NCBI GenBank assembly: GCA_913062615.1
Contig: CAJXXI010000001.1
Coordinates: 1-52,323 of the forward strand
Length of the DNA stretch: 52,323 nt
Reading direction: 5' to 3'
Source of the DNA: an uncultured bacterium
Lineage (GTDB): Bacteria; Planctomycetota; Phycisphaerae; Phycisphaerales; UBA1924
How positions within the stretch are numbered: the stretch's first letter is position 1; each line of letters starts with the position of its first letter. Shown one piece after another: positions 28,667 through 51,674 of this stretch. A program made the translations under genes and the position numbers. The notes under the pieces were generated by a model. It was not told where the DNA came from and made no database searches. It worked only from the letters and a program-made list of their open reading frames with translations.

Positions 28667-28833
28667 AATGACTCGATTCTGAGTGGGTGTTCGTGTTGGT
28701 ATTCGTGCGCCAATGGGTGTTCGGTTCCATCAATTATGGAGCCTAGGCATCAGAAAGACCGATAACACAAGGGAATATAGACGCTGGGGAGGCGGTGCGC
28801 CCACAGCGAAACAGTGATGAACTGGAGAACCCT

Positions 28834-32562: not shown

Positions 32563-32576
32563 GCAAAGGAATATCC

Positions 32577-33305: not shown

Positions 33306-34332
33306 TCGAAAAATTGGCATGAATCATCGGCCTTACATCATCGCCGAGATTGGTGTAAACCATGACGGCGAGGTGGCGCGTGCGTTGGAGTTGACCGACG
33401 CCGCGGCTGATGCAGGGGCAGACGCGGTGAAGCTTCAGTTCTTTGAGACCGATCGGTTGATGAGCAAGGCGGCCAAGCTGGCGGCGTATCAGAAGAACGC
33501 TGGCGAGACGGATCCGATCGAGATGCTCAAGCGATTAGAGCTGACGATCGACGAGATGGCGTTGGTGGTTGATCGGGCTCATGAGCGCGGGATTCATGCG
33601 ATCGTGACGGTGTTTAGTATGGAGTTGGTGGAGGCAGCTGAGACTTTGGCGTGGGACGCGTACAAGACGGCGAGCCCGGACATTGTGAATCGGCCTTTGT
33701 TGGAAGTGTTGATGGCGACTGGCAAGCCGATGATTGTGAGTACGGGGGCGAGTGAGCTTGATGAGGTTGTGCGAGCGGTTGGGTGGCTTGATGATGCGCG
33801 GGATCGGTTGGCGGTGTTGCAATGTGTGAGTTGTTATCCGGCACCAGATCCAGCTCTCGCAGGAATCCCGGTCATTCGTGACACAACAGGCTTGCCTACA
33901 GGATACAGCGATCATACATCGAATCCGGCTACTGGTCAGATGGCAGTTCGAACCGGTGCATGTATATTAGAGAAGCACCTTACCTATGACATACATGCGG
34001 CAGGTCCTGACCACTCCGCTTCATTTGAAATTAGCTTTTTCAAGTGTTACACAAGCACAGCCCGTCGGGTTGAATGGGTTCACAATACGATCGGGGAGAA
34101 AACAGTCCTCGACTGCGAACGCGATGTGCGGGAAGTCTCGCGGCAATCAGTGGTCAGTGCATGCGATATCACATTGGGCACCACGATCACGCGAGAGATG
34201 CTGACGATCAAACGCCCGGGCACCGGGATATTGGGCTTTGAGATTGATACAGTCGTTGGCCGAGTCGCAACGCGTGCGGTCGAGGCGGATGTGCCGATTG
34301 TGGAAGAGGACCTTGAATGTCAGACGAGTTGA
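33292..34332 (+). CDS. neuB: N-acetylneuraminate (nonulosonate) synthase with a C-terminal SAF domain
   Basis: It has IGDRKIGMNHRPYIIAEIGVNHDGEVARALELTDAAADAGADAVKLQ, VSTGAS, YSDHT and an SAF-like tail. It overlaps neuA by 14 nt. Confidence 0.85.
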   Translation: MQIGDRKIGMNHRPYIIAEIGVNHDGEVARALELTDAAADAGADAVKLQFFETDRLMSKAAKLAAYQKNAGETDPIEMLKRLELTIDEMALVVDRAHERGIHAIVTVFSMELVEAAETLAWDAYKTASPDIVNRPLLEVLMATGKPMIVSTGASELDEVVRAVGWLDDARDRLAVLQCVSCYPAPDPALAGIPVIRDTTGLPTGYSDHTSNPATGQMAVRTGACILEKHLTYDIHAAGPDHSASFEISFFKCYTSTARRVEWVHNTIGEKTVLDCERDVREVSRQSVVSACDITLGTTITREMLTIKRPGTGILGFEIDTVVGRVATRAVEADVPIVEEDLECQTS

Positions 34333-35450
34333 AGAAGATCATGATTGTGACCGGGACTCGGGCTGAGTTCGGGCTCTTAAGGCCGGTCATGTATGCGGTG
34401 CATGCTCAAGAACAATGCGAGCTTCGGATTATTGTTGCGGGTTCGCATTTGGTCCAGCCGGCGGTGACTTTTCGTGAAGTGAAGGCCGAGTTCGGGATCG
34501 CCGACACGATCCCGATGCAGACGGCCGGGCAGGTTGGGCGATTGGCTGATGTTGAATCACTCGGCAAAGGAATCTCGCGGTTTGGGCGATCGCTGGAGAT
34601 GAATGATCCGGATTGTGTGGTTGTGCTCGGGGATCGGATCGAGGCGTTCGCCGCGGCGAGTGCGGCGAGCATCGGCGGGTATCCGCTTGTGCATATTCAT
34701 GGCGGCGATCGCGCGGAAGGGGTCGCTGACGAAGCGATGCGCCATGCGATTACAAAGCTGGCCAATATCCATTTTCCTGCGACCCAAACCAGCGCGGATC
34801 GGATCATCAAGATGGGTGAAGACCCAGCAAGCGTGCATGTGGTCGGGTCGTCTTCGATTGATGGGCTTGATGAAATTCCAGCGATGGGCGACGGGGCGTT
34901 TGCGGAGCTTGGATCGCCTGAGGTTGTGGTGCTGATGCATCCGATCGGGCGCGGGGATGCTGACGAACAGGCTGTGATGGAGTTGGTTTTCAAGGCGTTT
35001 GAAGACAAGAAGGTGCTGGTGCTGCATCCGAACCTTGATCCTGGTCGGCGTGGGATTATGGCGGCGATTGAGTCGGCGCCGATTGATGTGCAGGTGGTGC
35101 CTCAGCTGGTACGGACGCAGTTTGTTGGGTTGCTCAAGCGGATCGGTGCAGCCGGCGGCGCGTTGGTTGGGAACTCATCAGCCGGGCTGATCGAGTGCAG
35201 TGCGATCGGGTGTCCGAGTGTGGATATCGGCGATCGACAATCTGGGCGCGAGCGCTGTGTTGGGTGGACGAGCCATGGCGATGAAGATACCCACTCGATC
35301 CGGGGGGCATTCGACACCATCACGCATTCGGACTGTGTGCGATCGGCGCACCCTTATGGCGACGGGCACACGGGCGAGCGGATCGCGAAGATTCTTGCCT
35401 CGACTGACTTCTCAACATCGAGTTTGATCCGCAAACAGTGTTCGTATTAA
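34317..35450 (+). CDS. neuC: UDP-N-acetylglucosamine 2-epimerase (hydrolysing), NeuC/LegG type
   Basis: It has KIMIVTGTRAEFGLLRPVM, VVVLGDRIEAFAAA, HIHGGDRAEGVADEAMRHAITKLANIHF and GNSSAGLIE. It overlaps neuB by 16 nt. Confidence 0.85.
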   Translation: MSDELKKIMIVTGTRAEFGLLRPVMYAVHAQEQCELRIIVAGSHLVQPAVTFREVKAEFGIADTIPMQTAGQVGRLADVESLGKGISRFGRSLEMNDPDCVVVLGDRIEAFAAASAASIGGYPLVHIHGGDRAEGVADEAMRHAITKLANIHFPATQTSADRIIKMGEDPASVHVVGSSSIDGLDEIPAMGDGAFAELGSPEVVVLMHPIGRGDADEQAVMELVFKAFEDKKVLVLHPNLDPGRRGIMAAIESAPIDVQVVPQLVRTQFVGLLKRIGAAGGALVGNSSAGLIECSAIGCPSVDIGDRQSGRERCVGWTSHGDEDTHSIRGAFDTITHSDCVRSAHPYGDGHTGERIAKILASTDFSTSSLIRKQCSY

Positions 35451-37401: not shown

Positions 37402-38895
37402 TCAGTCTTGAATCCCCAAGCCGTGTTTGAGCTCGTCTAAGTGGCTTTCGTAGCGTTTGTACTTCTGGACCGAGCTGGTGTACATTGGCTTGCGCACCTG
37501 TTCGCGTGATGCCGTGGAGATGGTTCGCTTTGATGTGTGAAAGTTGAGGATGTCTTGGGACCAATCGAAACCGAGGAACTCCATGACGCGTTTGGACTCG
37601 GCTTCTGGATCGTTGACCAGTTTTTCGTAATGCAGATCGATCATGTCGACCTCGTCGAGCGTGTGCCATGCCTGCATCATGCGTTCGTAATCTCGGTAGT
37701 ACCGCCCGAGCCAAAAGAGATCATGTGTTTGCATGTGCGGGCGAGCGAAGGCTTGGGTGTAGTTTGAGAGCATGCAATCCATCGGGTCGCGTACACAATG
37801 GATGATCTTGCACCCGGGGAACATGTGTGCGATCAGTGGCACATTGGCGTAGTTGTATGGCTGTTTGTCGGTGATCGAGCCGGTGCGTGCGACTTCGTTG
37901 TAATACACCATGGCTTCCTTGGCCATTTTTTGGATCATCTGTTTGGTGTATCGATCGCGCGTATACGCCAGTGATGGTTGGTAGGGGATGTTCGCAGGAT
38001 CGATCGGGGCGACTTGGCGTGTGATCGCGTTCATCTCGCCGCCGGGTGTGATGGCTTTGATTTGGGTGATCATCTGTTCGGTGAGCGATGTGCCAGATCG
38101 CATCATGCCGATGATGAAGATGAGCCGAGAACCATCGATCGTTGAAGTTGGAATCTTGGATCCATTCGTCCAGCAATCGATAAGTTTGTCTACTCGCTTT
38201 GTATAGACATCAGGATTCCATTGTGCTTTTTTAACTTCTTTGGAGGCTTTGTAGGCTATGAACGCTTCGTCGTATTGTTCGAGATGGTCGTTGAGCCGAC
38301 CGGTCTGCCAATGGCCCGCGATCCGGAGCTCGTCGTTGATCAACTCGTCATCAATATACTGTTTTATGTCGTCGATGGATTCTTGAGCATCTCTTACCTT
38401 AGGGGCAAGGCGTGCGCCAGAAATCGCGATCGCGAGCAGGTGGTTGATGTTGTGCTCGTCTTTGGATGTGAGTCGGCGTAAATCGTTCCATGCTTTGTTG
38501 GCATCATTCACGCGATCGAGGTCTGTGAGCACGGAGCATTTGTGGCGGAGGGCATTGAAGTGGTTTGGTTGATAGTACAATGCGCGTTCACATTCGAGCA
38601 ATGACAGATCGAACTTGCCGCCTTTTTTGAGCGCGTAGGCGTAGTCGTATCGTGCGTTGGCGTCTTTATCGTTGCAATCGACGGCTTGTTTGTAGAACGA
38701 GATCGATTCGGCGTGCCGACCTCGCTTGGCGTTTGCCTTGCCCATGAGCATGAGGACTGTTGATTGGCGGGGGTATTTTTTATCGAGTTCGGCGAGTTTC
38801 TTGAGCGGGGTTGCGAACTGGCCCGCCTCGATCGCGTCATTGATCTTTTTGAGCAAGGCAAAGAACTGTTTGCGTTGTTGAGGCGTGAGCGACAT
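37402..38895 (-). CDS. TPR-repeat-containing sulfotransferase (PAPS-dependent)
   Basis: The N-terminal half has TPR-like repeats (AESISFYKQAVDCNDKDANARYDYAYALKKGGKFDLSLLECERALYYQPNH). The C-terminal half has the 5'-PSB loop FIIGMMRSGTSLTEQM and the 3'-PB-like VRDPMDCMLSNY. The start is at MSLTPQQ (38895). Confidence 0.75.
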   Translation of the reverse strand: MSLTPQQRKQFFALLKKINDAIEAGQFATPLKKLAELDKKYPRQSTVLMLMGKANAKRGRHAESISFYKQAVDCNDKDANARYDYAYALKKGGKFDLSLLECERALYYQPNHFNALRHKCSVLTDLDRVNDANKAWNDLRRLTSKDEHNINHLLAIAISGARLAPKVRDAQESIDDIKQYIDDELINDELRIAGHWQTGRLNDHLEQYDEAFIAYKASKEVKKAQWNPDVYTKRVDKLIDCWTNGSKIPTSTIDGSRLIFIIGMMRSGTSLTEQMITQIKAITPGGEMNAITRQVAPIDPANIPYQPSLAYTRDRYTKQMIQKMAKEAMVYYNEVARTGSITDKQPYNYANVPLIAHMFPGCKIIHCVRDPMDCMLSNYTQAFARPHMQTHDLFWLGRYYRDYERMMQAWHTLDEVDMIDLHYEKLVNDPEAESKRVMEFLGFDWSQDILNFHTSKRTISTASREQVRKPMYTSSVQKYKRYESHLDELKHGLGIQD

Positions 38896-38908
38896 ATATT
38901 TCTCGTGT

Positions 38909-39643
38909 TTAGAGCCCGCGTTTGGTTGGGTTGATGACCATGTTGTCACGCCCGCAGATCAATACATCGGCGATCTCGATGGCCTCTTTGAAGCTTTCTT
39001 GGGCAAGTGCGCGATCTGCACAAGTCGGAAGCACCTTGCCTTGGTCGACATGTTCGACGGTTGGGATGGCGTCGCCGCAGACGAGCGTTGTGCGGGTGGG
39101 TTCTGACAAGAGCAATCCACACATGCCCATCGAGTACCCGGGCAACGGGAAGAGATCGACTTCGTTGACAATCGAATCCGGCGCGGGCACACACCGTGAA
39201 AGCACGGCGACATCTCTTTGAATGATCGCGAACATCGCTTCTTGATCCTCATCAAACTGATTGCCGGCGTGTTCTGCCTCTTCTTTGGCTTGGGCGAGGT
39301 TGGCGAGAGATTGGGCGATGGGCACGCCTACGGTTTCACGTTCTTTCTCAGAGATGAGCCATTGGGCTTTGTCGAAGAGTTCGATCCCGCGTCGGCATTC
39401 TGGGTTGAAGCTCGTTAAGAACACATGGGTGATCTGCTCGGGTGTGAGATTGGCGCGTTCGCCGAGCCGGGCTTTGAGGGCGGGCGCGGGCAGCCCTGGA
39501 TCAACAATGATCTTAGCATTGTTGGTCTGGATCAGTGTTGTGGTCGAATGCCCGGTTCGGACAGGGTGTCGTTCATCCCAGATCGGATGGGCCGCGAGGG
39601 TGCCGATGGAAAGAACTCGGATGTCCATACTCTGTGTAGCCAT
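38909..39643 (-). CDS. MBL-fold-like protein with a degenerate metal-binding motif
   Basis: It has the MBL strand order (IIVDPG ... ITHVFLTSFNPECRRG ... LVCGDAI). The position of the canonical HxHxDH reads SFNPEC. The start is 39643 or 39628. Confidence 0.5.
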   Translation of the reverse strand: MATQSMDIRVLSIGTLAAHPIWDERHPVRTGHSTTTLIQTNNAKIIVDPGLPAPALKARLGERANLTPEQITHVFLTSFNPECRRGIELFDKAQWLISEKERETVGVPIAQSLANLAQAKEEAEHAGNQFDEDQEAMFAIIQRDVAVLSRCVPAPDSIVNEVDLFPLPGYSMGMCGLLLSEPTRTTLVCGDAIPTVEHVDQGKVLPTCADRALAQESFKEAIEIADVLICGRDNMVINPTKRGL

Positions 39644-39721
39644 AGGCAAGAGTAGGCATGAAAAAACGGGCGATGCATCATAGGATACATCGCCCGTTGA
39701 CATTTGTGATTGAATGTATAA

Positions 39722-41065
39722 TCAGCTTGTTTCGCCGATGATCATCGCGGCTCCGACGGTGTTGTTGGTCTGCTCATCGACAATAATAAAGCTGCCCGTC
39801 ACTCGGCACTGGCGGTATGGATCAAAGAACAAAGGCTTGGTCGTGCGGATCGATACCCGACCGATCTCGTTGAGCTTGAGTTCGTCAGCTTCTTCGATCC
39901 GGTGGAGGGTCTCAATGTTGAGCTGGTAGTTCAGGTTCTTGATCACACACCGGGCCTCGTTGGAGGTGTGGCGGATGGTGTACTTCTTGCCGACCTTCAT
40001 CGGGGTGTCCGCCATCCAGACGACCATCGCATCGATGTCTTGGCCGGAGATCGGTTTGTTGTGTGTTCGGCAGAGCATGTCGCCACGCGAGATGTCGATA
40101 TCGTCTTCGAGCTGGATCGACACACTCATCGGCGGCGACGCCATCTGCTGTGGATCGCCTCCGATATCGATCGACTTGATCTTTGATTCCATCCCCGATG
40201 GCAAAGCGACGACTTCGTCGCCGACCTGGAAGACGCCCGAGGCAACCTGTCCGCCATACCCGCGATAATCATGGTGCTCGTCGCCCTGCGGGCGAACAAC
40301 CCATTGGACCGGGAAGCGTGGATCGATCATGTCGCGATCGCCCGCGATATGAACATTCTCAAGGTGGTGCAAGAGCGATGGGCCCTGGTACCAATCCATG
40401 TTTTCTGAACGGTTGACGACATTGTCGCCGGTGAGGGCGGACATGGGGATGAAGGTGATGTCGGTGATCTCAAAACGAGCAGCGAACTCTTCAAACTCTT
40501 CGCGGATCTTGTCGTATTTGTCTTGCGACCAATCGACGAGGTCCATCTTGTTCACACACACCACCAGATGCGGGATGCGCAGCAGCGAGGTGATGAAAGA
40601 GTGCCTGCGGGTCTGTTCGATCACACCATGACGCGCGTCGATCAGGATCAACGCGAGGTTGGCTGTCGAAGCGCCGGTGACCATGTTGCGGGTGTACTGA
40701 GTGTGCCCTGGGCAATCTGCGATGATGAACTTACGCTTTGGGGTCGCGAAGTATCGGTAGGCAACATCGATGGTGATGCCTTGTTCGCGTTCGGCGCGGA
40801 GCCCGTCGGTGAGCAGCGCGAGGTCCATGCGTTGATCACCACGCGAGAGCGAGGCAGATTCGGCGGCTTCGAGCTGATCCTCAAAGATCGACTTTGAGTC
40901 ATAGAGCAAACGCCCGATGAGCGTGGACTTGCCGTCATCGACCGAGCCACAAGTCAGGAACCGGAGCAGGTCCATATCGAGATAGGCGTCTGTCGAGAAA
41001 TCCATGCCCTTATTGGCGTTTGGATCGGTCGAGAAGTCGGTTTTGGATGTGGTTTCGGTGGCCAT
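39722..41065 (-). CDS. cysN: Sulfate adenylyltransferase subunit 1 (GTPase)
   Basis: It has RFLTCGSVDDGKSTLIGRLL (G1), DCPGH and NKMD. It is EF-Tu-like with no fused APS kinase domain. Confidence 0.9.
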   Translation of the reverse strand: MATETTSKTDFSTDPNANKGMDFSTDAYLDMDLLRFLTCGSVDDGKSTLIGRLLYDSKSIFEDQLEAAESASLSRGDQRMDLALLTDGLRAEREQGITIDVAYRYFATPKRKFIIADCPGHTQYTRNMVTGASTANLALILIDARHGVIEQTRRHSFITSLLRIPHLVVCVNKMDLVDWSQDKYDKIREEFEEFAARFEITDITFIPMSALTGDNVVNRSENMDWYQGPSLLHHLENVHIAGDRDMIDPRFPVQWVVRPQGDEHHDYRGYGGQVASGVFQVGDEVVALPSGMESKIKSIDIGGDPQQMASPPMSVSIQLEDDIDISRGDMLCRTHNKPISGQDIDAMVVWMADTPMKVGKKYTIRHTSNEARCVIKNLNYQLNIETLHRIEEADELKLNEIGRVSIRTTKPLFFDPYRQCRVTGSFIIVDEQTNNTVGAAMIIGETS

Positions 41066-41068
41066 GTC

Positions 41069-42007
41069 CTAGAAGTACCCTTCTTTTTTGCGATCTTCCA
41101 TCGCGGCTTCATTCGTCTTATCATCAATCCGTGCGCCGCGTTCGGATGCTCGAGCAGCGGCAACTTCAGCAACAATCTCTTCAAGATTCGATGCTGGTGA
41201 ATCCGTCGCGGCCGTACAACTCATATCGCCGACCGTGCGGAAACGCACAGTACGGTTCACAATGGTCTCGCCTTCACGAGCACCAAATGGTGCATCACCA
41301 ACAGGCACAAGCTGGCCTCGGCGTTCGACCACATCACGCTTATGAGAGAAGTAGAGATCTGGGATCTCGATTTCCTCAAGCATGATGTACTGCCAGACAT
41401 CCATTTCCGTCCAGTTCGAGATCGGGAACACGCGGATGTTCTCGCCCATGCGAGAGCGTCCGTTATACAGGTTCCAGAGTTCTGGGCGTTGGTTCTTAGG
41501 GTCCCACTGTCCGAAATCATCACGGAACGAGAAGATGCGTTCTTTAGCGCGAGCCTTTTCTTCGTCGCGGCGAGCGCCGCCGAAGAGGGCGTCGAACTGA
41601 TATTTTTCAATCGCATCAAGCAATGTCGGGATTTGTGCCCGGTTGCGTGATGGGAACGCGCCTGGATCTTCCACAGCATCGCCGCGATCGATCAGATCTT
41701 GAACCTTATGAATGATCAATCGTTCACCGATTTCGTCGACGAACTTGTCGCGAAAATCGAGGGCCTCGGGAAAGTTGTGCCCGGTGTCGATGTGGAGCAG
41801 AGGGAACGGAAACTTTGCTGGCCGGAATGCTTTTTGAGCGAGCCGAACCATAACGATGGAGTCCTTGCCACCTGAGAACATCAGCGCTGGTTTCTCGAAC
41901 TGGGCCGCCACTTCGCGCATGATGTGGATCGCCTCAGCCTCGAGGGCTTTGAGGTGGGTGAGTCGGTAGTGCTCGTGGGCACCGGGTTTTTCTATAGCCG
42001 AGGTCAT
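41069..42007 (-). CDS. cysD: Sulfate adenylyltransferase subunit 2
   Basis: It has LKALEAEAIHIMREV and the PP-loop FSGGKDSIVM. A 3-nt gap separates it from cysN. Confidence 0.9.
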   Translation of the reverse strand: MTSAIEKPGAHEHYRLTHLKALEAEAIHIMREVAAQFEKPALMFSGGKDSIVMVRLAQKAFRPAKFPFPLLHIDTGHNFPEALDFRDKFVDEIGERLIIHKVQDLIDRGDAVEDPGAFPSRNRAQIPTLLDAIEKYQFDALFGGARRDEEKARAKERIFSFRDDFGQWDPKNQRPELWNLYNGRSRMGENIRVFPISNWTEMDVWQYIMLEEIEIPDLYFSHKRDVVERRGQLVPVGDAPFGAREGETIVNRTVRFRTVGDMSCTAATDSPASNLEEIVAEVAAARASERGARIDDKTNEAAMEDRKKEGYF

Positions 42008-42273
42008 GCCAGAAGGTCTCCGCCGGGGTAACTCAGAAAAATCATAAAACGGGCATCAGCATCAATCGCTGTGCAGTTTATATCTGTCTCATCCATCGGC
42101 CGATCTTTCCCGCTCCGAGAGCGGGAAATCAGGATTCGTGAGACTATTGAGCCGAAGTATAGACCATAATCAGACATATTCACGGGCGATAGATGCCCGA
42201 TAATCGTGCTTGTTGAATCGAAGTACGATATTGTCCATCACAAGCCCCATCAGCACCCGCTGGAGACACCGCA

Positions 42274-42930
42274 TTGAGCGATCAAAAACAACCAAAGAAC
42301 GAATCATCGAGCCGCCCAACAAGCCAATCCACCAATATTGTTTGGCATGATGGAGAGGTGTCGCGGGCGGATCGGGCCAAAGTGCTCGGACACCAGGGGT
42401 GTACCCTCTGGCTCACCGGGTTGTCTGGATCGGGCAAATCGACGGTTGGGGTTGCTCTTGAGCATGCTTTAAATGCCCGTGGGGTGCTGGCGTATCGGCT
42501 CGATGGCGACAATGTCCGCCACGGGCTCAATGCCAACCTTGGGTTCGGAGCCGACGACCGCAAAGAGAATATCCGTAGAATTGGGGAGGTCGCCAAGCTT
42601 TTCGCTGATGCGGGCGTGGTGACGATCTCGAGTTTTATCTCGCCCTATCAGGCCGACCGCGACCAGGTCCGCAAGATTCACGAAGACGCCGGGCTTAAGT
42701 TTCTCGAAGTCTTTATCAATACCCCGATCGAAATCTGTGAGCAACGCGATCCCAAAGGGCTGTATAAAAAGGCACGCGCCGGCGAGATCAAAGGATTCAC
42801 CGGCATCGATGATCCGTACGAGCTGCCTAAAGATCCTGAGATTGATCTTAAAACCGGCGAGAACACAATCGAACAATCCGTCGAGCAGCTCGTCGCTGAA
42901 CTAACCAAGCGTGGTTTGATCAACAGCTGA
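42274..42930 (+). CDS. cysC: Adenylylsulfate (APS) kinase
   Basis: It has GCTLWLTGLSGSGKSTV, LDGDNVRHGLN and ISPY. The start is TTG, with GGAGA 7 nt upstream. Confidence 0.9.
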   Translation: MSDQKQPKNESSSRPTSQSTNIVWHDGEVSRADRAKVLGHQGCTLWLTGLSGSGKSTVGVALEHALNARGVLAYRLDGDNVRHGLNANLGFGADDRKENIRRIGEVAKLFADAGVVTISSFISPYQADRDQVRKIHEDAGLKFLEVFINTPIEICEQRDPKGLYKKARAGEIKGFTGIDDPYELPKDPEIDLKTGENTIEQSVEQLVAELTKRGLINS

Positions 42931-42947
42931 GCCGAGCGAGTGCGGGT

Positions 42948-45554
42948 TTATGAATAGATCCTCATCACGCGACGCACAAAGTATCCCGCGATCAGCAGGA
43001 ACACACCCAGGCTCGCGAGCAGCGAGACGCTCGATGGCAATCCAAGTGATACGAGAATCGCCTTTGATGGGATGACCAGCTCGTGTCCAATAAACATCGG
43101 GAGCGAGAGCACGCCGCACGCTGCAAGAATGGCGATGAGTGTGGATGCGATCCCGCTGCGTGGGATGATCGAGAGTATCCGGATCGTCATTCCAAGCATG
43201 AGCACAATCAATCCAAGGTAACCAACGATCAGCGTAATCGGAGGACTGCCCATATCAAGCCATGTGGTGATCTCGTTTGTATCAATCGAGAGCAGCACCG
43301 ATGCAGCGATCATGAGCCCGCCGCCCATCAGATATGTATTTGCTTCGTTGCGGATGTTGTGTACCGATTGGTGAAAATGTGATCCGACAGCCACCCCGAG
43401 CATCACGGTCCCGGTCATCACAAAGTAGTTGTACTTTGCCATGGTCATCAGGCTGATGAGCTCCGCCAACCCACTGTCGTATGTCTTGTGTGTGACAACA
43501 GCTTCTAAGAAAAGATCTATCCCAAAGCACACCGCAGAAACCATCAACGCGCCGCCTACACGCTTGGAGGGGGCACTTAAAAGCCGATGCCAGAACGGGA
43601 TGCTGAGCACCGCGAGCAGGTAATACATCAACACAGAATAGAGCAGAACGCTCGAAATTGGCACGCTTAGATAGTCGCCGGTGAACTTAATTTTGGCGTA
43701 TCTGACGATCGCGAGGATCCCGATGCCGACAGCCACCATGATGGTCGCGATCCGGATTCGTGTCATCACGCCAGAGATATTTTTGTCCATCTGGTGCAAG
43801 AAAAAGTATCCGACGCCAAGCCCGAAGATGATCGCGAACCCCGGTGTCCCCATGCGATAGAGCGGGTTGAGCCATCGGCTGATCTCATCGGCATTGACCG
43901 GGAGTCGTTCCAATAAACCGGGCAAGAAATGGATGCAGATGAGCCAGAGCACGAGCACCCCACGCACACTATTGATTGTATCGCCAGCGATTCGATCGTT
44001 TGTTCGTGGCGCTCGTTGGGCGGTGCCCTCGCGCATCGCATCGTGCGTAGCGACGATCTGGGAGATGGTTTCGCCATCGAATACCCGGGCTGTCACATCA
44101 CGATCGACATGGGCGCGTTCGAGCGAGAGCATGAGTGCGATTGATGAGAGCGAATCGCCGCCGTGCTCGTAGAACGAGGTGTGGAGCGAGACCGTCTCTT
44201 GGCGGAGCACGCTTTGCCATGCTGCGACAAGCTTTGATTCGAGATCATCAGCATCGCCAGAGTGCGCGGGCTGATGGGTTGGTGTTTCAGGGCTCGGCTG
44301 CTCGGGCTGATACAAGCTGGCAAGCTCGGAGCGTTGGACTTTTCCAGACCCGGTCATCGGGAGGGTGTCGACGAGCATTGTGTGCAAGGCGTTGCCGACC
44401 CGAAGCCCCATGTGCTCGAGGGTATCCTTTATGGATTGTTCGACTTGAGCAGCATCGAGCTTTGTCTGGGGTGTGAAGCACACGAGCACACCATCGCCTC
44501 GGATCGGGTCGGGGATGCGTGCGATGGCGATCCCTTGGTGAATATTGAGCCGATCGAAGAGGTGTTGTTCGATTGCTTCTGGGCTGAGCTTGATGCCGCC
44601 GCAGTTGATTTGGTCGTCTGATCGTCCAAGGTAATAGAGGAACCCATCGCGCATCTCACCGAGATCATTCGTTCTCAACCACCCTTGATCGCCAACGATC
44701 GGCACGATGCCGTCTGCGTTGAGTATGCCAGAAGCAATATGTGGGCCTCGGATTTAGATTCGGCCGTCATCTGAAATCCGCACCTTGGCATCGCCGGTGG
44801 GTTGGCCGACGGATTCGAGCGATTCGTCAGAAGCGTATGTGATATCGAGGAATGTTGAGCGTGACGCTTCGGTTAAGCCGTAGTGTTGGACAATTTTGGC
44901 GTTGGGGAAGAGTTCTCGGAGTTGTTGTTTTTCATCGCCAGCCATATATTGGCTTCCGATTTCGATCCAACGCAGCTTTGATCCGTGATCTGAAAAGAGT
45001 TCTGGGTAGGCGAGCAGGGTTCGGATGAGTGTCGGAACCGCTGAAAATGCGTTGATTTCGTCGTTTTCGAGCATCTTGGCGATTTCGACAGGATCGAATC
45101 CACGCTCTGGGATGTAGGTGCTCCCGCCGAGGGCGGCGCATGCTCTCAAGCGTGCGAGTCCAAAGGAATAGCTCGCGGGCACGCCGACATATTCTTTCAC
45201 ACTCGCGTCGAGCTGCATCGCCTCGTTGACACGGACGACAACATCGTTCAAGGCGCGATGACTCAGGGCGATTGCTTTGGGTTGCCCTTCTGTGCCTGAA
45301 GTGAATGTGATTTGGGCGAGATTATCGGTATTGTGAAACCGGGTCTGCTTGTGATGGATCCAACCAAAGCCCTCTTCGGGTTCGATCACTCGTTCAACCT
45401 GTGCGCCTTCGAGCAGGGCGAGCTGCTCTTTGGAGCGGAGGATGACCAATGGTGTCTGCTGGTCGTAGAGCCGGAGCACCTCTTCGATAAACGAACGAGA
45501 GTTGGTCGCCATGATGGCGACGAGGTTGATTGGTGTGGGGTTCAACGCGGACAC
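42948..45554 (-). pseudogene. Adenylation domain - carrier protein - multi-pass membrane acyltransferase(AT3-like) fusion gene, interrupted by a single in-frame TAA (44754-44756)
   Basis: The upstream ORF (44754..45554) carries the AMP-binding core TFTSGTEGQPKAIALSH and ends ...VRISDDGRI*. The same frame continues IRGPHIASGILNADGIVPIVGDQGWLRTNDLGEM...GRSDDQINCGGIKLSPEAIE...GSGKVQR. Next comes a carrier motif (FYEHGGDSLSSIALM), then about 10 TM helices beginning NSVRGVLVLWLICIHF. Confidence 0.7.
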
Positions 45555-45645
45555 TCCTGAATATCGTGAAACCGATTATTTTGTCTCGATCGCCCTGTGG
45601 ATGGTTTATCGAACACATTCTTGATGAACTTGTCACCCTCTGTGA

Positions 45646-45654
45646 TGGTATAAT
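45646..45654 (+). promoter_or_regulatory. Extended -10 promoter-like element TGGTATAAT upstream of the PAP phosphatase gene
   Basis: It matches TGnTATAAT exactly, about 150 nt upstream of the ATG at 45803. The only -35-like hexamer (TTGTCA 45630-35) is spaced 13 nt away, so it is not convincing. Confidence 0.3.
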
Positions 45655-45802
45655 CTCTCTGAATCATGTTCGCTCTTCCATTGTGCATTTGGACACCGCG
45701 ATCACAGGCAAAAACAGGGTGAAGAAGATGGAGTTCATCGACTCATTGGCCGATGATTCCATCGGCCAAAACCGCCCAGATTACCCAGCAAAAGAGGAAG
45801 TC

Positions 45803-46834
45803 ATGTCCAATATCGCCGAATTCGCCCACGCCGGCCGCCAAGCGGTTGTTGCTGCTTCGATCGTCTGTAGAGAGGTTCAGAATAACCTTGATGCGGTCCG
45901 TACTATTACTAAAGACGACAAAAGCCCTGTGACAGTCGCCGACTATGCGGCGCAAGCGGTTGTCGCGATGGTACTTAAGCAGCATCTCGGCGAGTTTGTA
46001 ATGGTTGCCGAAGAGTCCTCGACCTTCTTGCGCGATGAGGACAACGCGATGATCCTTGATGCGGTCGTCGCTGCGGTCAAAGAGGTCTGGGACGACGCGA
46101 CACCCGATGCGGTGCTCGAAGCGATTGATCTCGGAGCGGGCGACACAACACACCATAAATACTGGACCCTCGACCCGATCGATGGCACCAAAGGGTTCCT
46201 CCGCAATCAGCAATATGCAGTTGCGCTGGGGTATATCGAGGATGGGACGCCGACGATTGGGGTGATGGGATGCCCAAACCTGGCGGTCGATATGTCGATG
46301 CCGTTTGATGAGCGTGATAGCCGAGGGTGTCTGTATTACGCGATCAAAGGCGAGGGTGTCTGGGAATCTCGGTGCGATGATGGCGAGTCAGAATCCATCC
46401 GTATCACCCGTCTCGATCATGTCGAATCCGAAGAAATCTCGGTCTGTGGCTCGGTCGAGAAGGCCCATACGAATGTTTCAGATATGGACCGGATCCTGGA
46501 CTGGATCGAAGCCAACGGGCTCGGGCGGGCCGGCGAGCCTGCGAGATTGGATTCGCAGTGCAAATACGCGGTTGTTGCGCGTGGGCAGGCCGATGCGTAT
46601 CTCAGATTGCCGACCCGCAAGGGGTATGTCGAGCGGATTTGGGATCATGCAGCCGGGTGCTGTATTGCGTGCGAGTCTGGGGCGTTTGTGACCGATATAT
46701 TCGGACACAACCTCGATTTTTCGCATGGTCGTGGTTTGGAGAAGAATAAGGGCATCGTGTGTGCTCCGCCTCGGATTCACGGGCTGATGCTCAGAGCGAT
46801 TAAAGAGCTCGGCATCGGGCTCGATGCTGACTAA
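45803..46834 (+). CDS. cysQ: 3'(2'),5'-bisphosphate nucleotidase (PAP phosphatase), Hal2/SAL1-like inositol monophosphatase family
   Basis: It has SPVTVADYAAQAVVAMVL, VAEE and WTLDPIDGTKGFLR. AAGAGGAAG lies upstream of the ATG at 45803. The track ORF start at 45530 is rejected. Confidence 0.8.
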   Translation: MSNIAEFAHAGRQAVVAASIVCREVQNNLDAVRTITKDDKSPVTVADYAAQAVVAMVLKQHLGEFVMVAEESSTFLRDEDNAMILDAVVAAVKEVWDDATPDAVLEAIDLGAGDTTHHKYWTLDPIDGTKGFLRNQQYAVALGYIEDGTPTIGVMGCPNLAVDMSMPFDERDSRGCLYYAIKGEGVWESRCDDGESESIRITRLDHVESEEISVCGSVEKAHTNVSDMDRILDWIEANGLGRAGEPARLDSQCKYAVVARGQADAYLRLPTRKGYVERIWDHAAGCCIACESGAFVTDIFGHNLDFSHGRGLEKNKGIVCAPPRIHGLMLRAIKELGIGLDAD

Positions 46835-46860
46835 AGAACGCACACAAGGAATCAAACACA

Positions 46861-48711
46861 TTGGCAAACTGGGAACCCATCCTAACCGGGATCATGCTTG
46901 TGCTTATGGTGGGCACGATGGCGATGGGTCGGTTCGCGCCCGACATCATCATGATGGGTGTGCTTTTAGTCTTGTTGGTGTTTGGGATTCTTGAGCCTCA
47001 AGAAGCGGTGCAGGGGTTTGCCAATCAGGGCGTGATCACGGTGGCGATGTTGTACATTGTTGCCGCCGCGATGAAAGAAACCGGCGCGATGAGCCGAATC
47101 ACCGCGGTGCTGATTGGTCGTCCCAAGGACGAACGCAGCGCACAGATCCGATTGACGCTTCCGGTGGCGGTGATGAGCGCGTTCATTAACAACACGCCGA
47201 TCGTTGCGATGTTCTTGCCCACGCTCGCGGGTGTTGCACGAAGATGTCGGATCGCGCCCAGCAAGCTGTTTATGCCTTTGTCCTTTGCGTCGATCCTTGG
47301 CGGCGTGTGCACACTCATCGGCACCTCGACCAATGTGATTACTTCCAAGCTGCTCAGCGACGCACAAGTGACCGTCGATGGCGGGCCGGTCACTTTGGAT
47401 AACCCTGCACTCAAGTTTGGGATGTTCACACTCGCCAAGGTCGGGTTGCCGATCGCGATTTTCGGGGTGGCGTATATCTTGATCTTTGGCCGTAAACTCT
47501 TGCCTGATCGGGCGAATCCGATCGAGGATGCTGAAACACGCGGGCAAGGGTACCACGCTGCGCTCAAGGTCAGCCCCCATAGCCCGATCGTCGGCAAGAC
47601 GGTCGAAGAAGCAAACCTACGCAACCTGCCGGGGCTGTTTTTGTCGCGGATTGAGCGTGTGGACGATTCGATGGTTGCGGTATCGCCTAAGGAAATTATC
47701 CATGAGGGCGATGTCTTAATCTTTGTAGGCCAGCTCGAATCGGTTGTTGAACTCCAGCAGATCAAAGGGTTGGTGCCCGCGACCACCGAGACGCACGGGC
47801 ACCGCGAGAGCGAAGTTGAAGAGAGCGAAGCCGACGATCACTATCGTCCGAATCTCCGGATTGTCGAAGCGGTGGTCTCGAACAACTCGTCGCTCGTTGG
47901 GATGACGATTCGTCAATCAGGGATTCGCACACGCTATGGCGCGGTGGTTGTTGCGGTGCGTCGTCAGGGTCAACAGATCCCGGGCAAGCTCGGCGAGATC
48001 CGTTTACGCCCCGGCGATACCTTGTTGCTCGAAGCGCCTCCGGGTTTTTCGGATCGCTTTGGGGCGACGGGTGATTTTTATCTTGTCAACGAGCGCATCA
48101 CGCCGGCAGCCCTGCGCCATGATCGTGCGTGGGCAGCGATCGCGATTTTGGCATTGCTCGTGGTGTTGTTGTCGTTTAGTGTGTTCGAGCCGATGACCGC
48201 AGCGATGCTCGCTGCGGGATTGATGGTCGTGACACGATGCTGTACCGGCCCACAAGCTCGAAGAGGCGTCGATTTCCAGATACTCACTGTCATCGGGGCA
48301 TCGTTTGGTATCGGGCAGGCGATGATCAATACCGGGTTGGCAGCCGATATATCGCACGTGATCGTGTCGGCGTGTTCGTCGCTGGGACCCACCGGGTTGT
48401 TGGCAGCGATCTATATCCTGACGACGCTGTTCACCGCGACGATGACCAATAACGCGGCGGCGGTGCTGATGTTCCCGATCGCGATCGGGATCGCTCTTGA
48501 TCAACAATACAACCCGATGCCATTCATCGTGGCGATCACCGTGGCTGCGAGCTGCGAGTTCTCGACCCCGATCGGGTACCAGACGAATCTGATGGTGATG
48601 GGGCCCGGCGGATATCGCTGGCTCGATTACACCAAGTTTGGCGGCCCGTTGACGATTCTGTGTGGGGTGATTTGTGTGGTGTTGGCGCCAATGATGTTTG
48701 GTGGGTTTTAA
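46861..48711 (+). CDS. SLC13/DASS family anion permease with two central TrkA-C domains (possible sulfate transporter)
   Basis: It is 616 aa, with multi-TM halves flanking two RCK_C-like units (VSPHSPIVGKTVEEANLR...GDVLIFVG and VSNNSSLVGMTIRQSGIR...GDTLLLEA). The start is TTG 46861 or a downstream ATG. Confidence 0.75.
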   Translation: MANWEPILTGIMLVLMVGTMAMGRFAPDIIMMGVLLVLLVFGILEPQEAVQGFANQGVITVAMLYIVAAAMKETGAMSRITAVLIGRPKDERSAQIRLTLPVAVMSAFINNTPIVAMFLPTLAGVARRCRIAPSKLFMPLSFASILGGVCTLIGTSTNVITSKLLSDAQVTVDGGPVTLDNPALKFGMFTLAKVGLPIAIFGVAYILIFGRKLLPDRANPIEDAETRGQGYHAALKVSPHSPIVGKTVEEANLRNLPGLFLSRIERVDDSMVAVSPKEIIHEGDVLIFVGQLESVVELQQIKGLVPATTETHGHRESEVEESEADDHYRPNLRIVEAVVSNNSSLVGMTIRQSGIRTRYGAVVVAVRRQGQQIPGKLGEIRLRPGDTLLLEAPPGFSDRFGATGDFYLVNERITPAALRHDRAWAAIAILALLVVLLSFSVFEPMTAAMLAAGLMVVTRCCTGPQARRGVDFQILTVIGASFGIGQAMINTGLAADISHVIVSACSSLGPTGLLAAIYILTTLFTATMTNNAAAVLMFPIAIGIALDQQYNPMPFIVAITVAASCEFSTPIGYQTNLMVMGPGGYRWLDYTKFGGPLTILCGVICVVLAPMMFGGF

Positions 48712-49908: not shown

Positions 49909-50757
49909 TTATGGACAACCCGCTGAAAACTGGGTGAGGAACGCTGAAACATCAAAGAAGTTAAACAGCCCGTCGCCGGTGAAGTCGGCGATGGGGTCCA
50001 TCGTTGCAAACGCACCGAGGAACTCGGACACATCAAAGAAGTTCAGATCACCGTCGCCGTTGAGATCGGCAGGGCATGTCGCGGGGGCATTGCGGGTGAT
50101 GGTGAAGTTGTCGATGGAGAAATCAAAGAAGACCTGAAGATAAAACTCGGTAGGCACGAATGTGTTGAATGAGAGCTCGTCTACATTCGACAGGATGTCA
50201 GCGAAGGTCGCGCCCTCGGGGAGGACTGGGCCGTCGGCGTCATCGCTGCCGCCAAAGCCGATCCATCCTTCGGGCAACTCAAGCGAGTTGGGATCGAAGG
50301 TGACACTAAAGGTTTGCCATTCTCCGTTATTGGCTTCACTGATTTGAGAATCGAGCACCCAGATCACCGCGCCGTAAGCGAAGATTCCGCCATTGCCAAA
50401 CTCGGTGTTTCTCAGATCAAGCACCAGCGATCGAATCTGTGGCACAGATCGCCCGTCGGGGATGTTTTCGGAGTTGAGCATGTCAACACGGACATCAACC
50501 GAGAGGGTGATGGATTCAGAAGCGGTGTAATCGCCTAGGAATCCCTCAAGGGAGTTGTTGGTATAGTGAACACCGAATGTCCAATCGACAGAGCGCATGA
50601 ACTGGTTGCCGGTGTTGTCTGATGTGATGAATGTGCCGTTGCCACCGTTCCACCCTTCCGAACCATTATCGAAGGTGGTCGTGCTTGTTTGGGCGATCGC
50701 TTGCCCGCCAGCGAGCGCGAGCAGGGTTGTACATAGTGTTGCTGTATTGACGTTCAT
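49909..50757 (-). CDS. Secreted protein with a C-terminal GC-type dockerin-like domain
   Basis: The signal peptide is MNVNTATLCTTLLALAGGQAIAQ. The N-domain begins TTFDNGSEGWNGG. The C-terminus is CPADLNGDGDLNFFDVSEFLGAFATMDPIADFTGDGLFNFFDVSAFLTQFSAGCP, two EF-hand/dockerin-like repeats ending in GCP. Confidence 0.7.
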   Translation of the reverse strand: MNVNTATLCTTLLALAGGQAIAQTSTTTFDNGSEGWNGGNGTFITSDNTGNQFMRSVDWTFGVHYTNNSLEGFLGDYTASESITLSVDVRVDMLNSENIPDGRSVPQIRSLVLDLRNTEFGNGGIFAYGAVIWVLDSQISEANNGEWQTFSVTFDPNSLELPEGWIGFGGSDDADGPVLPEGATFADILSNVDELSFNTFVPTEFYLQVFFDFSIDNFTITRNAPATCPADLNGDGDLNFFDVSEFLGAFATMDPIADFTGDGLFNFFDVSAFLTQFSAGCP

Positions 50758-50834
50758 ATCGAAAAATCCTTTTTTACATCCGTTGTGTCCCGAGCAACTG
50801 CCTGGTTGGGCGTGCATAGTTCATTGGGTTGGGT

Positions 50835-51674
50835 TTATGGACATCCTACTGAGAATGCACTCAGGAAGTCTGAGACATCGAAGAAGTTGAACTCACCATC
50901 GCCGGTGAAGTCGGCGATCGGGTCCATCGCTGTGAATGCGGTGAGGAACGCGGAGACATCGAAGAAGTTGAGGTCGCCATCGCCGTTGAGATCTGCTGGG
51001 CATGGTCCAGCGATCGAGCGGATGGTGATGTTGTCGACCTGGATATCAAAGTTGGTGAACCCAAAGAAGAACCCAGGGACAAAGGTTGTGAAGGTGATCT
51101 CGTCGACGCTTTCGAGCACGCTGGCGAAGGTTCGGCCTTCTGGGAGGATTGGTTCGAAGGTATTGGGATCTTCAGCACCAGAGCCGCGCCATCCGGCGGG
51201 CAGATCGAGCGATGCGGTGTCCTCGATGATGATGGAGTAGGTAACCCATTCGTTGTTGACTCTTGAGTCGAGCACCCCCAGTGAGTACCAGGTTGAAGTC
51301 CACGGGAACCCGTTATTGTTGTCGAAGTCACGAAGATCGACGACGAGTTCGCGGGGGACCTCGCTGTTGAAAAAGGTGATTGAGTTCACCTTGATGTCGA
51401 TGCTCAGTTCGATCGCGCCGCCGAAGCGGTTGTAGTCGCCGAGGAAGCTGAGGTTTGTGCTGTTGCGTGTATCGGCTCCGAAGACATCGATCAGGATACC
51501 GTGGAGGTTTTCGTCGGGGTTGCCGCCCGCAATGTCGATGGTGGTGCGTCCCGAGATCGACCACCCTTCGAGCCCGTTATCAAATGTAGTTGTGGTATCG
51601 CCGGCGATGAGCGTGCTTGAGGCGAGTGCGATGGTGGCGAGTGAAAGAATGGTGGTCATTGAATTTTTCATCAT
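50835..51674 (-). CDS. Secreted protein with a C-terminal GC-type dockerin-like domain (tandem paralog)
   Basis: The signal peptide is MMKNSMTTILSLATIALASSTLIAG. It has TTFDNGLEGWSISG and the C-terminus CPADLNGDGDLNFFDVSAFLTAFTAMDPIADFTGDGEFNFFDVSDFLSAFSVGCP. Confidence 0.7.
   Translation of the reverse strand: MMKNSMTTILSLATIALASSTLIAGDTTTTFDNGLEGWSISGRTTIDIAGGNPDENLHGILIDVFGADTRNSTNLSFLGDYNRFGGAIELSIDIKVNSITFFNSEVPRELVVDLRDFDNNNGFPWTSTWYSLGVLDSRVNNEWVTYSIIIEDTASLDLPAGWRGSGAEDPNTFEPILPEGRTFASVLESVDEITFTTFVPGFFFGFTNFDIQVDNITIRSIAGPCPADLNGDGDLNFFDVSAFLTAFTAMDPIADFTGDGEFNFFDVSDFLSAFSVGCP

What the first reader, a model, noticed from the sequence alone, without database searches (positions are those of the whole stretch)
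42948..45554. Single-polypeptide adenylation - carrier - membrane acyltransferase gene (Dlt-like logic in one ORF)
Read through the one stop codon, the frame encodes ~868 aa in three parts.
- A compact AMP-binding domain, with TSGTEGQPK, YGLTEAS, GRSDDQINCGGIKLSPEAIE and GSGKVQR.
- A phosphopantetheine carrier, with GGDSLSSIALM.
- A ~330 aa domain of about 10 TM helices opening with NSVRGVLVLWLICIHF. This resembles the conserved R...H start of acyltransferase-3 (OafA-like) proteins.
Functionally this mirrors DltA + DltC + DltB: activate an acid, load a carrier, then pass it through a membrane acyltransferase to an extracytoplasmic polymer. Here the parts are fused, and they use an AT3-like rather than an MBOAT membrane module. 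It sits inside the sulfation cluster. The substrate cannot be predicted by eye.
Basis: partly seen in the sequence, partly recalled or inferred. Interest (0 to 1): 0.7.

Follow-up and report, generated by a model that had tools for sequence, protein, structure and literature searches.

The report
Fused acid-activating, carrier, membrane acyltransferase gene
This gene, broken here by one stop codon, belongs to a widespread but unstudied family that fuses an acid-activating enzyme, its carrier domain and a divergent AT3-type membrane acyltransferase in one protein, probably to decorate exported polysaccharides with an acid the cell does not keep as a CoA ester.

Summary
On the minus strand, 45554..42948 encodes an 868-codon frame with one internal TAA at codon 267. 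It holds a compact ANL adenylation domain, a phosphopantetheine carrier and a C-terminal domain of 10 transmembrane helices.

- All adenylation core motifs and the carrier serine are conserved.
- The membrane domain is a divergent AT3 (PF01757). The window's own copy gives no Pfam hit. Intact orthologs and 16 of 57 family members match the whole AT3 profile, three scanned in detail above Pfam's cut-off. Reversed-sequence controls do not match.
- The AT3 hallmark R/K-X10-H in helix 1 is present in about 99% of 229 domains.
- Foldseek and a profile comparison with Oac-type AT3s found nothing, so the relationship is remote.

The family is broad: 339 loci in a one-genome-per-species collection. 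It sits in polysaccharide and exosortase loci. The sulfation link is confined to Phycisphaerae-like relatives.

This membrane-domain clade is almost always fused to carrier domains, as A-PCP-TM, A-PCP(2-4)-TM or C-A-PCP-TM. I found no publication on it, and the AT3 literature assumes acyl-CoA donors.

The stop differs by one base from the GAA and CAA of orthologs. This copy is either a recent pseudogene or carries a base error.

The parts
42948..45554 (-). Whole A-PCP-AT3-like reading frame: 868 codons, one internal TAA, terminal TAA at 42948-42950.
   Evidence: It aligns end to end with intact 855-918 aa relatives (67% identity to P0001).
45543..45558 (-). Probable ribosome-binding site AGGAG (45558-45554) and alternative start TTG (45545-45543).
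   Evidence: Read directly from the sequence. This is inference only.
44280..45554 (-). Compact ANL adenylation domain, residues 1-~425. Core motifs: P-loop TSGTEGQPK (45276-45302), QHYGLTEAS, T295/D297, GRSDD hinge, catalytic Lys405 (44340-44342).
   Evidence: Pfam AMP-binding E=3e-30, profile positions 151-383. Motif residues are invariant in 57 relatives. The closest solved cores are oxalate-, malonate-, 4-coumarate- and o-succinylbenzoate-CoA ligases. Phe131 sits where amino-acid-activating domains have Asp235.
44754..44756 (-). In-frame TAA at codon 267, inside the GRI-x-IRGP core motif.
   Evidence: Orthologs have GAA (L001) or CAA (L075) at this codon. Other relatives have E, Q, K, R, C or A.
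44031..44243 (-). Phosphopantetheine carrier (PCP/ACP-like) domain, residues ~438-508, with attachment Ser468 at 44151-44153.
   Evidence: Pfam PP-binding E=8e-9. The serine is invariant in 57 of 57 relatives and in 277 of 279 carrier domains of the wider family.
42951..43997 (-). C-terminal domain of 10 transmembrane helices, a divergent AT3-like acyltransferase, residues ~520-868. Conserved sites: R531-X10-H542 in TM1 (43929-43964), GTPGFA in TM2, R598/R600 at the cytoplasmic start of TM3, AKYNYF (Y708/Y710) in the outward-facing loop 5-6, GHELVIP (H824) in bent TM9.
   Evidence: Hydropathy. AlphaFold2 pLDDT 91.1, pTM 0.89. PF01757 hits in orthologs. Reversed control. Residue conservation.

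Best explanation
The locus encodes a member of an uncharacterised, widespread family of three-domain inner-membrane enzymes that O-acylate an exported glycan using their own tethered acyl donor.

Proposed steps:
1. The compact adenylation domain uses ATP to adenylate a free carboxylic acid. The acid is not an alpha-amino acid and is probably small. Hydroxy- and dicarboxylic acids are my guess.
2. The acyl group is moved to the phosphopantetheine arm on Ser468 of the fused carrier domain.
3. A linker of only ~20 residues holds the carrier at the cytoplasmic mouth of the AT3-like domain. Arg531 and the basic residues at the start of TM3 are placed to bind the arm's phosphate, while the arm threads into the pore.
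4. The thioester is presented to His542 at the outer end of TM1, with Tyr708/Tyr710 and His824 nearby on the outer face. The acyl group is then passed to a hydroxyl of a lipid-linked or nascent polysaccharide.

Basis: the motifs and residues behind steps 1-2 are shown to be present and conserved. Steps 3-4 are inferred from the OafB (AT3) pore model and the DltC-DltB precedent.

In this Phycisphaerae-like lineage the acceptor is presumably the glycan served by the adjacent PAPS-synthesis and sulfotransferase genes, with nonulosonic-acid genes further along the window.

In this contig the gene carries a single TAA at codon 267. This copy is either a very recent pseudogene or carries a one-base error.
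For: Domains:
- AMP-binding and PP-binding by Pfam.
- All ANL core residues (K93, T295, D297, R311, K405) and Ser468 are invariant in 57 relatives.
- Ser is kept in 277 of 279 carrier domains. R/K is kept in 229 of 229 and His in 227 of 229 TM1 motifs.

AT3 relationship:
- PF01757 hits 16 of 57 members across the whole profile.
- Scores are 38.1, 38.0 and 35.9 bits against a cut-off of 31. Orthologs P0001 and P0003 score E~1e-5.
- Reversed controls are negative.
- The model has 10 helices with a bent helix 9, as described for the TmAT fold (PMC12423673).
- Topology is N-in by the positive-inside rule.

Functional coupling:
- 222 of 246 proteins with this membrane domain carry at least one carrier domain.
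- Variants have 2-4 tandem carriers or a full C-A-PCP module.

Context:
- Of 82 loci, GT4 is next to the gene in 30, GT2 families in 18-22, WecG/TagA in 19, exosortase in 17 and Wzy_C in 12.
- The sulfation genes keep the same order in four Phycisphaerae-like loci at 49-67% identity.

Substrate class:
- Phe replaces Asp235.
- The nearest solved cores are small-acid CoA ligases.
Against: - No experiment exists for any family member.
- The window's own membrane domain gives no Pfam hit.
- hhalign and HMM comparisons with Oac-type AT3s show nothing above reversed controls.
- Foldseek finds no AT3 or HGSNAT match. A bona fide AT3 model found only one AT3 in the viral library, so that test has little power.
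- The AT3 RXXR motif is only approximated, as RxR with moderate conservation.
- No SGNH or other periplasmic partner is conserved nearby.
- Substrate and acceptor are unknown.
- The internal stop may mean no product is made here.
Confidence: 0.6

Rival explanations
1. In this genome the gene is a dead pseudogene. The TAA at codon 267 is real, only a 266-aa adenylation fragment is made, and the locus has no function.
For: - The stop lies inside a core motif, where all relatives have a sense codon.
- The public gene call for this contig splits the gene: the 568-aa product P0002 starts at Met301.
Against: - There is only one lesion in 2.6 kb.
- Every residue that is invariant across the family is retained here.
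- GC3 is similar on both sides of the stop.
- The stop is one base from the GAA and CAA of orthologs, so a consensus or strain-variant base error would look the same.
- This explanation concerns this copy only, not what the family does.
Confidence: 0.45
2. The enzyme acylates a membrane lipid or lipid anchor, in the way Aas or aminoacyl-lipid synthases do, rather than a polysaccharide. The adenylation domain would then activate a fatty acid.
For: - Adenylation-acyltransferase fusions acting on lipids exist. Aas (NF006386) appears among the weak NCBIfam hits.
- At least one AT3 protein may act on a lipid-borne acceptor (mycolate case in PMC9558356).
Against: - The Aas score is 44.8 against a cut-off of 1221.
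- The nearest solved cores are small-acid ligases rather than FAALs.
- Conserved neighbours are glycosyltransferases, Wzy-like proteins and exosortase, not lipid-synthesis genes.
Confidence: 0.12
3. The membrane domain is not a catalyst. It is an anchor or export channel, and the tethered acyl group is passed to a separate enzyme or released.
For: - There is no detectable similarity to Oac-type AT3s.
- There is no Foldseek match.
- A profile of the domain finds only 348 proteins among 1.84 billion, so it is a closed clade.
Against: - Polar residues are near-invariant at the positions of the AT3 catalytic motif: R/K-X10-H, plus Tyr and His on the outer face.
- Full-length PF01757 matches occur, with negative reversed controls.
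- An anchor would not keep about 17 invariant positions across phyla.
Confidence: 0.1
4. The two ORFs work as a naturally split enzyme: an adenylation core of 266 aa, plus the rest of the adenylation domain with the carrier and membrane domains.
For: - Several database proteins of 560-600 aa begin inside the adenylation domain.
Against: - Those proteins start at different positions. One begins with a non-Met residue and another's carrier repeat is cut at the N-terminus. They look like fragments or mis-called genes.
- The break here is inside the A6 core motif of the large subdomain, not at the domain hinge.
- I noted no ribosome-binding site or nearby start after the stop. The next in-frame start is 16 codons downstream.
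Confidence: 0.05

Closest known systems
DltABCD D-alanylation system (DltA ligase, DltC carrier, DltB MBOAT)
   Same: The logic is the same. ATP-dependent adenylation of a free acid is followed by loading on a phosphopantetheinyl carrier, and a polytopic membrane acyltransferase with a catalytic His then hands the group to an extracytoplasmic polymer. DltA is among the solved relatives of the adenylation domain (E~1e-22).
   Different: - Here all parts are one polypeptide.
- The membrane module is AT3/TmAT-like, not MBOAT. The two folds are described as structurally distinct (PMC12423673).
- The alpha-amino-binding Asp is replaced by Phe, so the substrate is not D-alanine.
- No DltD or DltX equivalents were seen.
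AT3 (PF01757) carbohydrate O-acyltransferases: OafA/OafB, OatA, Oac, ExoH/ExoZ, WecH
   Same: - 10 transmembrane helices.
- R/K-X10-H in TM1.
- Basic residues at the cytoplasmic start of TM3.
- Conserved Tyr in the outward-facing loop 5-6.
- Bent helix 9.
- Location in polysaccharide loci.
- Full-length Pfam matches in family members.
   Different: - Known AT3s are stand-alone or fused to SGNH or an alanine racemase, and are held to use acyl-CoA rather than ACP (PMC9558356).
- This clade is fused to A-PCP.
- It is too divergent for profile or Foldseek detection against Oac-type members.
- It has RxR rather than RXXR.
Exosortase A-associated acyl-CoA ligase (TIGR03098) with its separate acyl carrier protein
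   Same: It is the best NCBIfam hit of the adenylation half (E=8.5e-24). Both lie in exosortase/PEP-CTERM polysaccharide loci, and both are functionally uncharacterised.
   Different: - The score is 83.9 bits against a cut-off of 592, so this is not a member.
- That system has separate proteins and no fused AT3 (from my knowledge of the TIGRFAMs description, not tested here).
Aas (acyl-ACP synthetase / 2-acyl-GPE acyltransferase) and similar adenylation-acyltransferase fusions
   Same: A membrane-associated fusion of an ANL adenylating domain with an acyltransferase.
   Different: - Aas has a PlsC-type acyltransferase and uses free ACP.
- It acts on lysophospholipid at the cytoplasmic face (from general knowledge).
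- The score is 44.8 against a cut-off of 1221.
NRPS off-loading domains (TE, R, terminal C)
   Same: In relatives with Condensation-Adenylation-PCP followed by this membrane domain, the domain occupies the position of a chain-release domain.
   Different: It is an integral membrane domain, which I do not know as a type of NRPS release domain. The window's own protein has no condensation domain.

Membership tests
ANL adenylate-forming superfamily (PF00501) | Pfam score above the gathering cut-off | tested here: met
   105.7 bits against a cut-off of 29.9. Only profile positions ~142-384 are matched. The N-terminal ~140 positions are absent in the whole family.
ANL adenylate-forming superfamily (PF00501) | Core motifs: P-loop (A3), YGxTE (A5), T-x-D (A7), GRxDD hinge (A8), catalytic Lys (A10) | tested here: met
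   K93, Y225-E229, T295, D297, R311, D313 and K405 are invariant in 57 sequences, including the window's.
Alpha-amino-acid-activating NRPS/DltA-type A domain | Asp235 in the A4 motif (FDxS), which binds the alpha-amino group | tested here: not met
   Aligned with NRPS-type A domains of the C-A-PCP-TM relatives (xHD/xFD), the window family has an invariant Phe131 at that column.
Phosphopantetheine carrier (PF00550) | Pfam score above the cut-off and a GGDSL serine | tested here: met
   36 bits against a cut-off of 20.8. Ser468 is kept in 57 of 57 relatives and in 277 of 279 carrier domains. Actual phosphopantetheinylation cannot be tested here.
AT3 / Acyl_transf_3 (PF01757) | Pfam score above the gathering cut-off (31 bits) | tested here: inconclusive
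   - Window copy: no hit at E<=10.
- Orthologs P0001 and P0003: 24.8 and 25.2 bits, E~1e-5, profile positions 4-324 of 326.
- P0030, P0107 and P0077: 38.1, 38.0 and 35.9 bits, above the cut-off.
- 16 of 57 members hit at E<=0.01.
- 0 of 4 reversed controls hit.
AT3 / Acyl_transf_3 (PF01757) | R/K-X10-H motif in TM helix 1 (Arg14/His25 of OafB; PMC9833829) | tested here: met
   R531-X10-H542 in the window. Across 229 domains the first position is R in 225 and K in 4, and His is present in 227.
AT3 / Acyl_transf_3 (PF01757) | RXXR on the cytoplasmic face of TM helix 3 | tested here: inconclusive
   The window has R598-I-R600 (RxR) at the cytoplasmic start of TM3. The main position is R or K in 137 of 229 domains, with further basic residues nearby. 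The spacing differs from RXXR.
AT3 / Acyl_transf_3 (PF01757) | 10-helix core with N-terminus in the cytoplasm | tested here: met
   Hydropathy and the positive-inside rule. The AlphaFold2 model has 10 long helices, with helix 9 broken or bent. The fused carrier domain forces an N-in orientation.
AT3 / Acyl_transf_3 (PF01757) | Detectable profile similarity to characterised AT3s (Sf6 Oac family) | tested here: not met
   hhalign probability is below 1%. HMM scores equal those of reversed controls.
TmAT fold (OafB/HGSNAT) | Structural superposition on OafB or HGSNAT | tested here: inconclusive
DltB / MBOAT | MBOAT membrane domain | tested here: not met
   No MBOAT hit appears in any Pfam scan of 57 members.
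Exosortase A-associated acyl-CoA ligase (TIGR03098) | NCBIfam score above the cut-off | tested here: not met
   83.9 bits against a cut-off of 592.

The most novel reading that the evidence does not exclude
This closed clade of AT3-like membrane domains is a dedicated off-loading and export domain for carrier-protein-tethered groups. It takes the phosphopantetheine arm of a fused PCP, not acyl-CoA, into the membrane pore and esterifies the cargo onto an extracytoplasmic polymer. The cargo would be simple acids in A-PCP-TM proteins and aminoacyl or acyl-aminoacyl groups in C-A-PCP-TM proteins. That would make it both the first carrier-protein-dependent AT3 and a membrane-embedded NRPS release domain.
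Probability: 0.4. Interest if true: 0.8.

Novelty: new variant of a known kind. Interest (0 to 1): 0.62.

Why it matters
AT3 proteins acylate LPS, peptidoglycan, capsules, Nod factors and antibiotics. How the acyl group crosses the membrane is still argued from models. The field's working assumption is that acyl-CoA, not a carrier protein, is the donor (PMC9558356).

- A family in which the donor is covalently tethered to the AT3 domain would show that the pore can accept a carrier-bound phosphopantetheine arm.
- It would extend polysaccharide acylation to acids that have no CoA-thioester pool.
- It would give a self-contained one-protein system for biochemistry and cryo-EM, with donor and membrane transferase in fixed stoichiometry.
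- The relatives with tandem carriers and with a full NRPS module suggest a wider link between thiotemplate chemistry and cell-surface polymers.
- For this contig, the gene marks a glycan locus that combines sulfation, a nearby nonulosonic-acid module and probably acylation in a Phycisphaerae-like planctomycete.

Tried and rejected
- Direct Pfam and NCBIfam scans of the window's membrane domain gave nothing useful.
- A profile of the membrane domain against PDB sequences gave no hit at E<=10.
- Foldseek of the confident AlphaFold2 model against PDB and BFVD gave only noise, with TM-scores of 0.1-0.26.
  - As a calibration I modelled Sf6 Oac. It found a single AT3 in BFVD, so these negatives carry little weight.
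- hhalign of the membrane-domain alignment against Sf6 Oac, and against a 30-sequence Oac-family alignment, showed no similarity. HMM searches in both directions equalled reversed controls.
- 'Sulfation-specific enzyme' is rejected as a property of the family. CysC, CysD and CysN neighbours occur in only 3-5 of 82 loci.
- 'Programmed read-through or recoding' is rejected. The stop column holds ordinary sense codons in all relatives, and no conserved signal was noted.
- 'Naturally split enzyme' was considered because of 560-600 aa database proteins, but these look like fragments with differing start points.
- The promoter and terminator scan of 42800-46000 found nothing above the shuffled expectation.
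- Five literature searches for the A-PCP-AT3 combination found no relevant paper.
- Genomic context of the C-A-PCP-TM relatives could not be obtained because the contigs are only 4.5-7.7 kb.
- The public record of the window's contig was not found by exact-protein look-up.
- The substrate could not be predicted.
Full report
**Observation**

The feature lies on the minus strand. Translating 45554..42948 gives 868 sense codons plus the terminal stop, with a single internal TAA at codon 267 (44756-44754).
- Pfam finds AMP-binding (E=3e-30) and PP-binding (E=1e-8).
- Hydropathy analysis and an AlphaFold2 model of residues 516-868 (pLDDT 91.1, pTM 0.89) both give ten transmembrane helices.
- The probable start is TTG 45545, 8 nt after an AGGAG, rather than the first-listed GTG 45554 (inference).

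**The stop codon**

The TAA sits inside the adenylation core motif GRI-x-IRGP.
- In fifteen aligned relatives that column holds E, Q, K, R, C or A.
- The two closest orthologous loci read GAA and CAA there, so the stop is one substitution away.
- There is no other lesion. The window's copy keeps every residue that is invariant in 57 relatives.
- This copy is therefore either a very recent nonsense allele or carries a consensus base error. Only read mapping can tell.
- It is not a conserved recoding site.

**Adenylation and carrier domains**

- The adenylation domain matches only the last two thirds of the Pfam profile. The short N-terminus is shared by the whole family.
- All catalytic core residues are invariant: P-loop Lys93, YGLTE, Thr295/Asp297, Arg311 and Lys405.
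- By profile, the nearest solved adenylation cores are oxalate-CoA and malonyl-CoA ligases, 4-coumarate ligase, MenE and DltA.
- No curated NCBIfam family is reached. The best hit is the exosortase-A-associated ligase TIGR03098, at 84 bits against a cut-off of 592.
- Aligned with NRPS-type adenylation domains, an invariant Phe occupies the position of the alpha-amino-binding Asp235. The substrate is therefore a carboxylic acid other than an alpha-amino acid. Beyond that I cannot predict it.
- The carrier serine is kept in 277 of 279 carrier domains of the family.

**Is the membrane domain an AT3?**

Evidence for:
- PF01757 is the only membrane family hit repeatedly, in 16 of 57 members at E<=0.01.
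- The match spans the whole profile (positions 4-324 of 326).
- Scores are above Pfam's cut-off in three members scanned in detail: 38.1, 38.0 and 35.9 bits against 31. The closest intact orthologs score E~1e-5.
- Four reversed sequences give no hit.
- The hallmark R/K-X10-H of helix 1 is present as R531...H542. It is kept in about 99% of 229 domains.
- By the positive-inside rule the domain is N-in. That puts Arg531 and Arg598/Arg600 at the cytoplasmic side, and His542, Tyr708/Tyr710 and His824 at the outer side.
- This is the arrangement described for OafB: an arginine cluster inside, with His25 and Tyr194 outside (PMC9833829).
- Helix 9 is bent, as in the TmAT fold (PMC12423673).

Evidence against, or missing:
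- The window's own domain gives no Pfam hit.
- A profile of the domain gives no PDB sequence hit.
- hhalign and HMM comparisons with the Sf6 Oac family show nothing above reversed controls.
- Foldseek finds nothing in PDB or BFVD. A bona fide AT3 model (Sf6 Oac, pLDDT 88.7) found only one AT3 in BFVD, so the fold test has little power.

I conclude that this is a remote, self-contained AT3-like clade. It is not a transporter.

**The family**

- A one-genome-per-species scan found 339 loci. They come from Planctomycetota, Chlorobiaceae, Alpha-, Beta- and Gammaproteobacteria, Cyanobacteria and Spirochaetia.
- A profile of the membrane domain finds only 348 representatives among 1.84 billion proteins. 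Almost all of these carry it as the C-terminal domain of 850-1425 aa proteins.
- Of 246 proteins with the domain, 222 carry at least one carrier domain.
- Three architectures occur: A-PCP-TM (the majority), A-PCP(2-4)-TM and Condensation-A-PCP-TM (twelve representatives).
- This near-obligate fusion is the strongest argument that the membrane domain takes its cargo from the carrier.

**Context**

Clustering the neighbours of 82 loci gives the following counts (Pfam-checked).

| Neighbour | Loci (of 82) |
|---|---|
| GT4 glycosyltransferase | 30 |
| GT2 glycosyltransferases (three families) | 22, 20, 18 |
| WecG/TagA transferase | 19 |
| Exosortase with DUF3485 | 17 |
| NAD-dependent epimerase | 16 |
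| Hexapeptide transferase | 16 |
| Wzy_C | 12 |

- The GT4 gene often overlaps the start of the gene of interest.
- CysC, CysD and CysN neighbours occur in only 3-5 loci.
- In those loci the order is conserved from 49% to 67% identity: CysQ-like, permease, this gene, CysC, CysD, CysN, MBL, TPR-sulfotransferase, SurE, HDOD. The loci are the window, L001, L075 and Phycisphaerales JB052.
- The sulfation link is therefore real for this lineage but not for the family.

**Mechanism and comparison**

- The best-supported model is Dlt-like logic built on an AT3-type pore instead of an MBOAT: adenylate, load on Ser468, thread the arm into the pore, transfer at His542 to an outward-facing glycan hydroxyl.
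- Domain identities and residue conservation are shown. Docking, catalysis, substrate and acceptor are inferred.
- The AT3 review lists only SGNH and alanine-racemase fusions. It argues that acyl-CoA rather than ACP is the donor (PMC9558356).
- Five literature searches found no description of an A-PCP-AT3 protein. Public annotations only say 'AMP-binding protein' or 'phosphopantetheine-binding protein'.

**Verdict**

- This is a real, non-chance feature, correctly read by the first stage.
- It is a new variant of a known kind: an AT3 acyltransferase with a covalently tethered, ATP-activated donor.
- It is of good interest at the family level. Interest in this window is tempered by the interrupted copy and the lack of any substrate prediction.

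Noticed in passing
window 37402-42930 and 45530-48711: A complete PAPS and sulfation module surrounds the gene: cysN, cysD, cysC, a CysQ-like 3'-phosphoadenosine phosphatase, a CitMHS/TrkA_C (sulfate-symporter-like) permease, a TPR-sulfotransferase, SurE and a metallo-beta-lactamase-fold protein. The gene order is the same in L001, L075 and Phycisphaerales JB052 (L002).
   Followed up: partly
window 28795-35450 (+): A nonulosonic-acid (sialic-acid-like) module: a 1255-aa protein with an MptE/Maf-like domain, a CMP-sugar cytidylyltransferase, NeuB and a UDP-GlcNAc 2-epimerase. It lies next to the sulfation genes, which suggests a sulfated glycan that also carries nonulosonic acid.
   Followed up: partly
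P0253, P0261, P0292, P0318 (representative-library hits); loci L083-L085: Relatives of 1356-1425 aa carry a full NRPS module (Condensation-Adenylation-PCP) in front of the same membrane domain. Their A domains keep the amino-acid-binding Asp. P0261 has a class IV aminotransferase (D-amino-acid type) nearby. The contigs are too short to give context.
   Followed up: partly
P0020, P0023, P0033, P0034, P0068 etc.: Longer relatives (940-1160 aa) have 2, 3 or 4 tandem carrier domains between the adenylation and membrane domains.
   Followed up: partly
window 49909-50817 (-) and 50835-51674 (-): Two adjacent paralogous proteins have no Pfam hit but a C-terminal GC-type dockerin domain (NF041540, 47.6 and 43.1 bits against a cut-off of 29). 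They are conserved in the syntenic loci L001, L002 and L075.
   Followed up: partly
window 45530-46834 (+): The CysQ-like ORF as listed (434 aa) overlaps the 5' end of the target gene on the other strand. The Pfam match starts at residue 105 and the ortholog in L001 is 346 aa, so the real start is probably about 90 codons downstream. That leaves a divergent intergenic region.
   Followed up: no
window 14791-16302 (-): A dnaA gene, so the contig is chromosomal and may include the replication origin region. tatC lies nearby at 12792-13859.
   Followed up: no
window 17598-21491 (-): A 1297-aa protein with PQQ/BamB-like beta-propeller repeats and no other recognisable domain.
   Followed up: no
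BFVD library: A method note. A confident model of the phage Sf6 O-antigen acetylase found only one AT3 in BFVD and not itself. Foldseek negatives for AT3-like membrane domains in these libraries should not be read as evidence of absence.
   Followed up: yes
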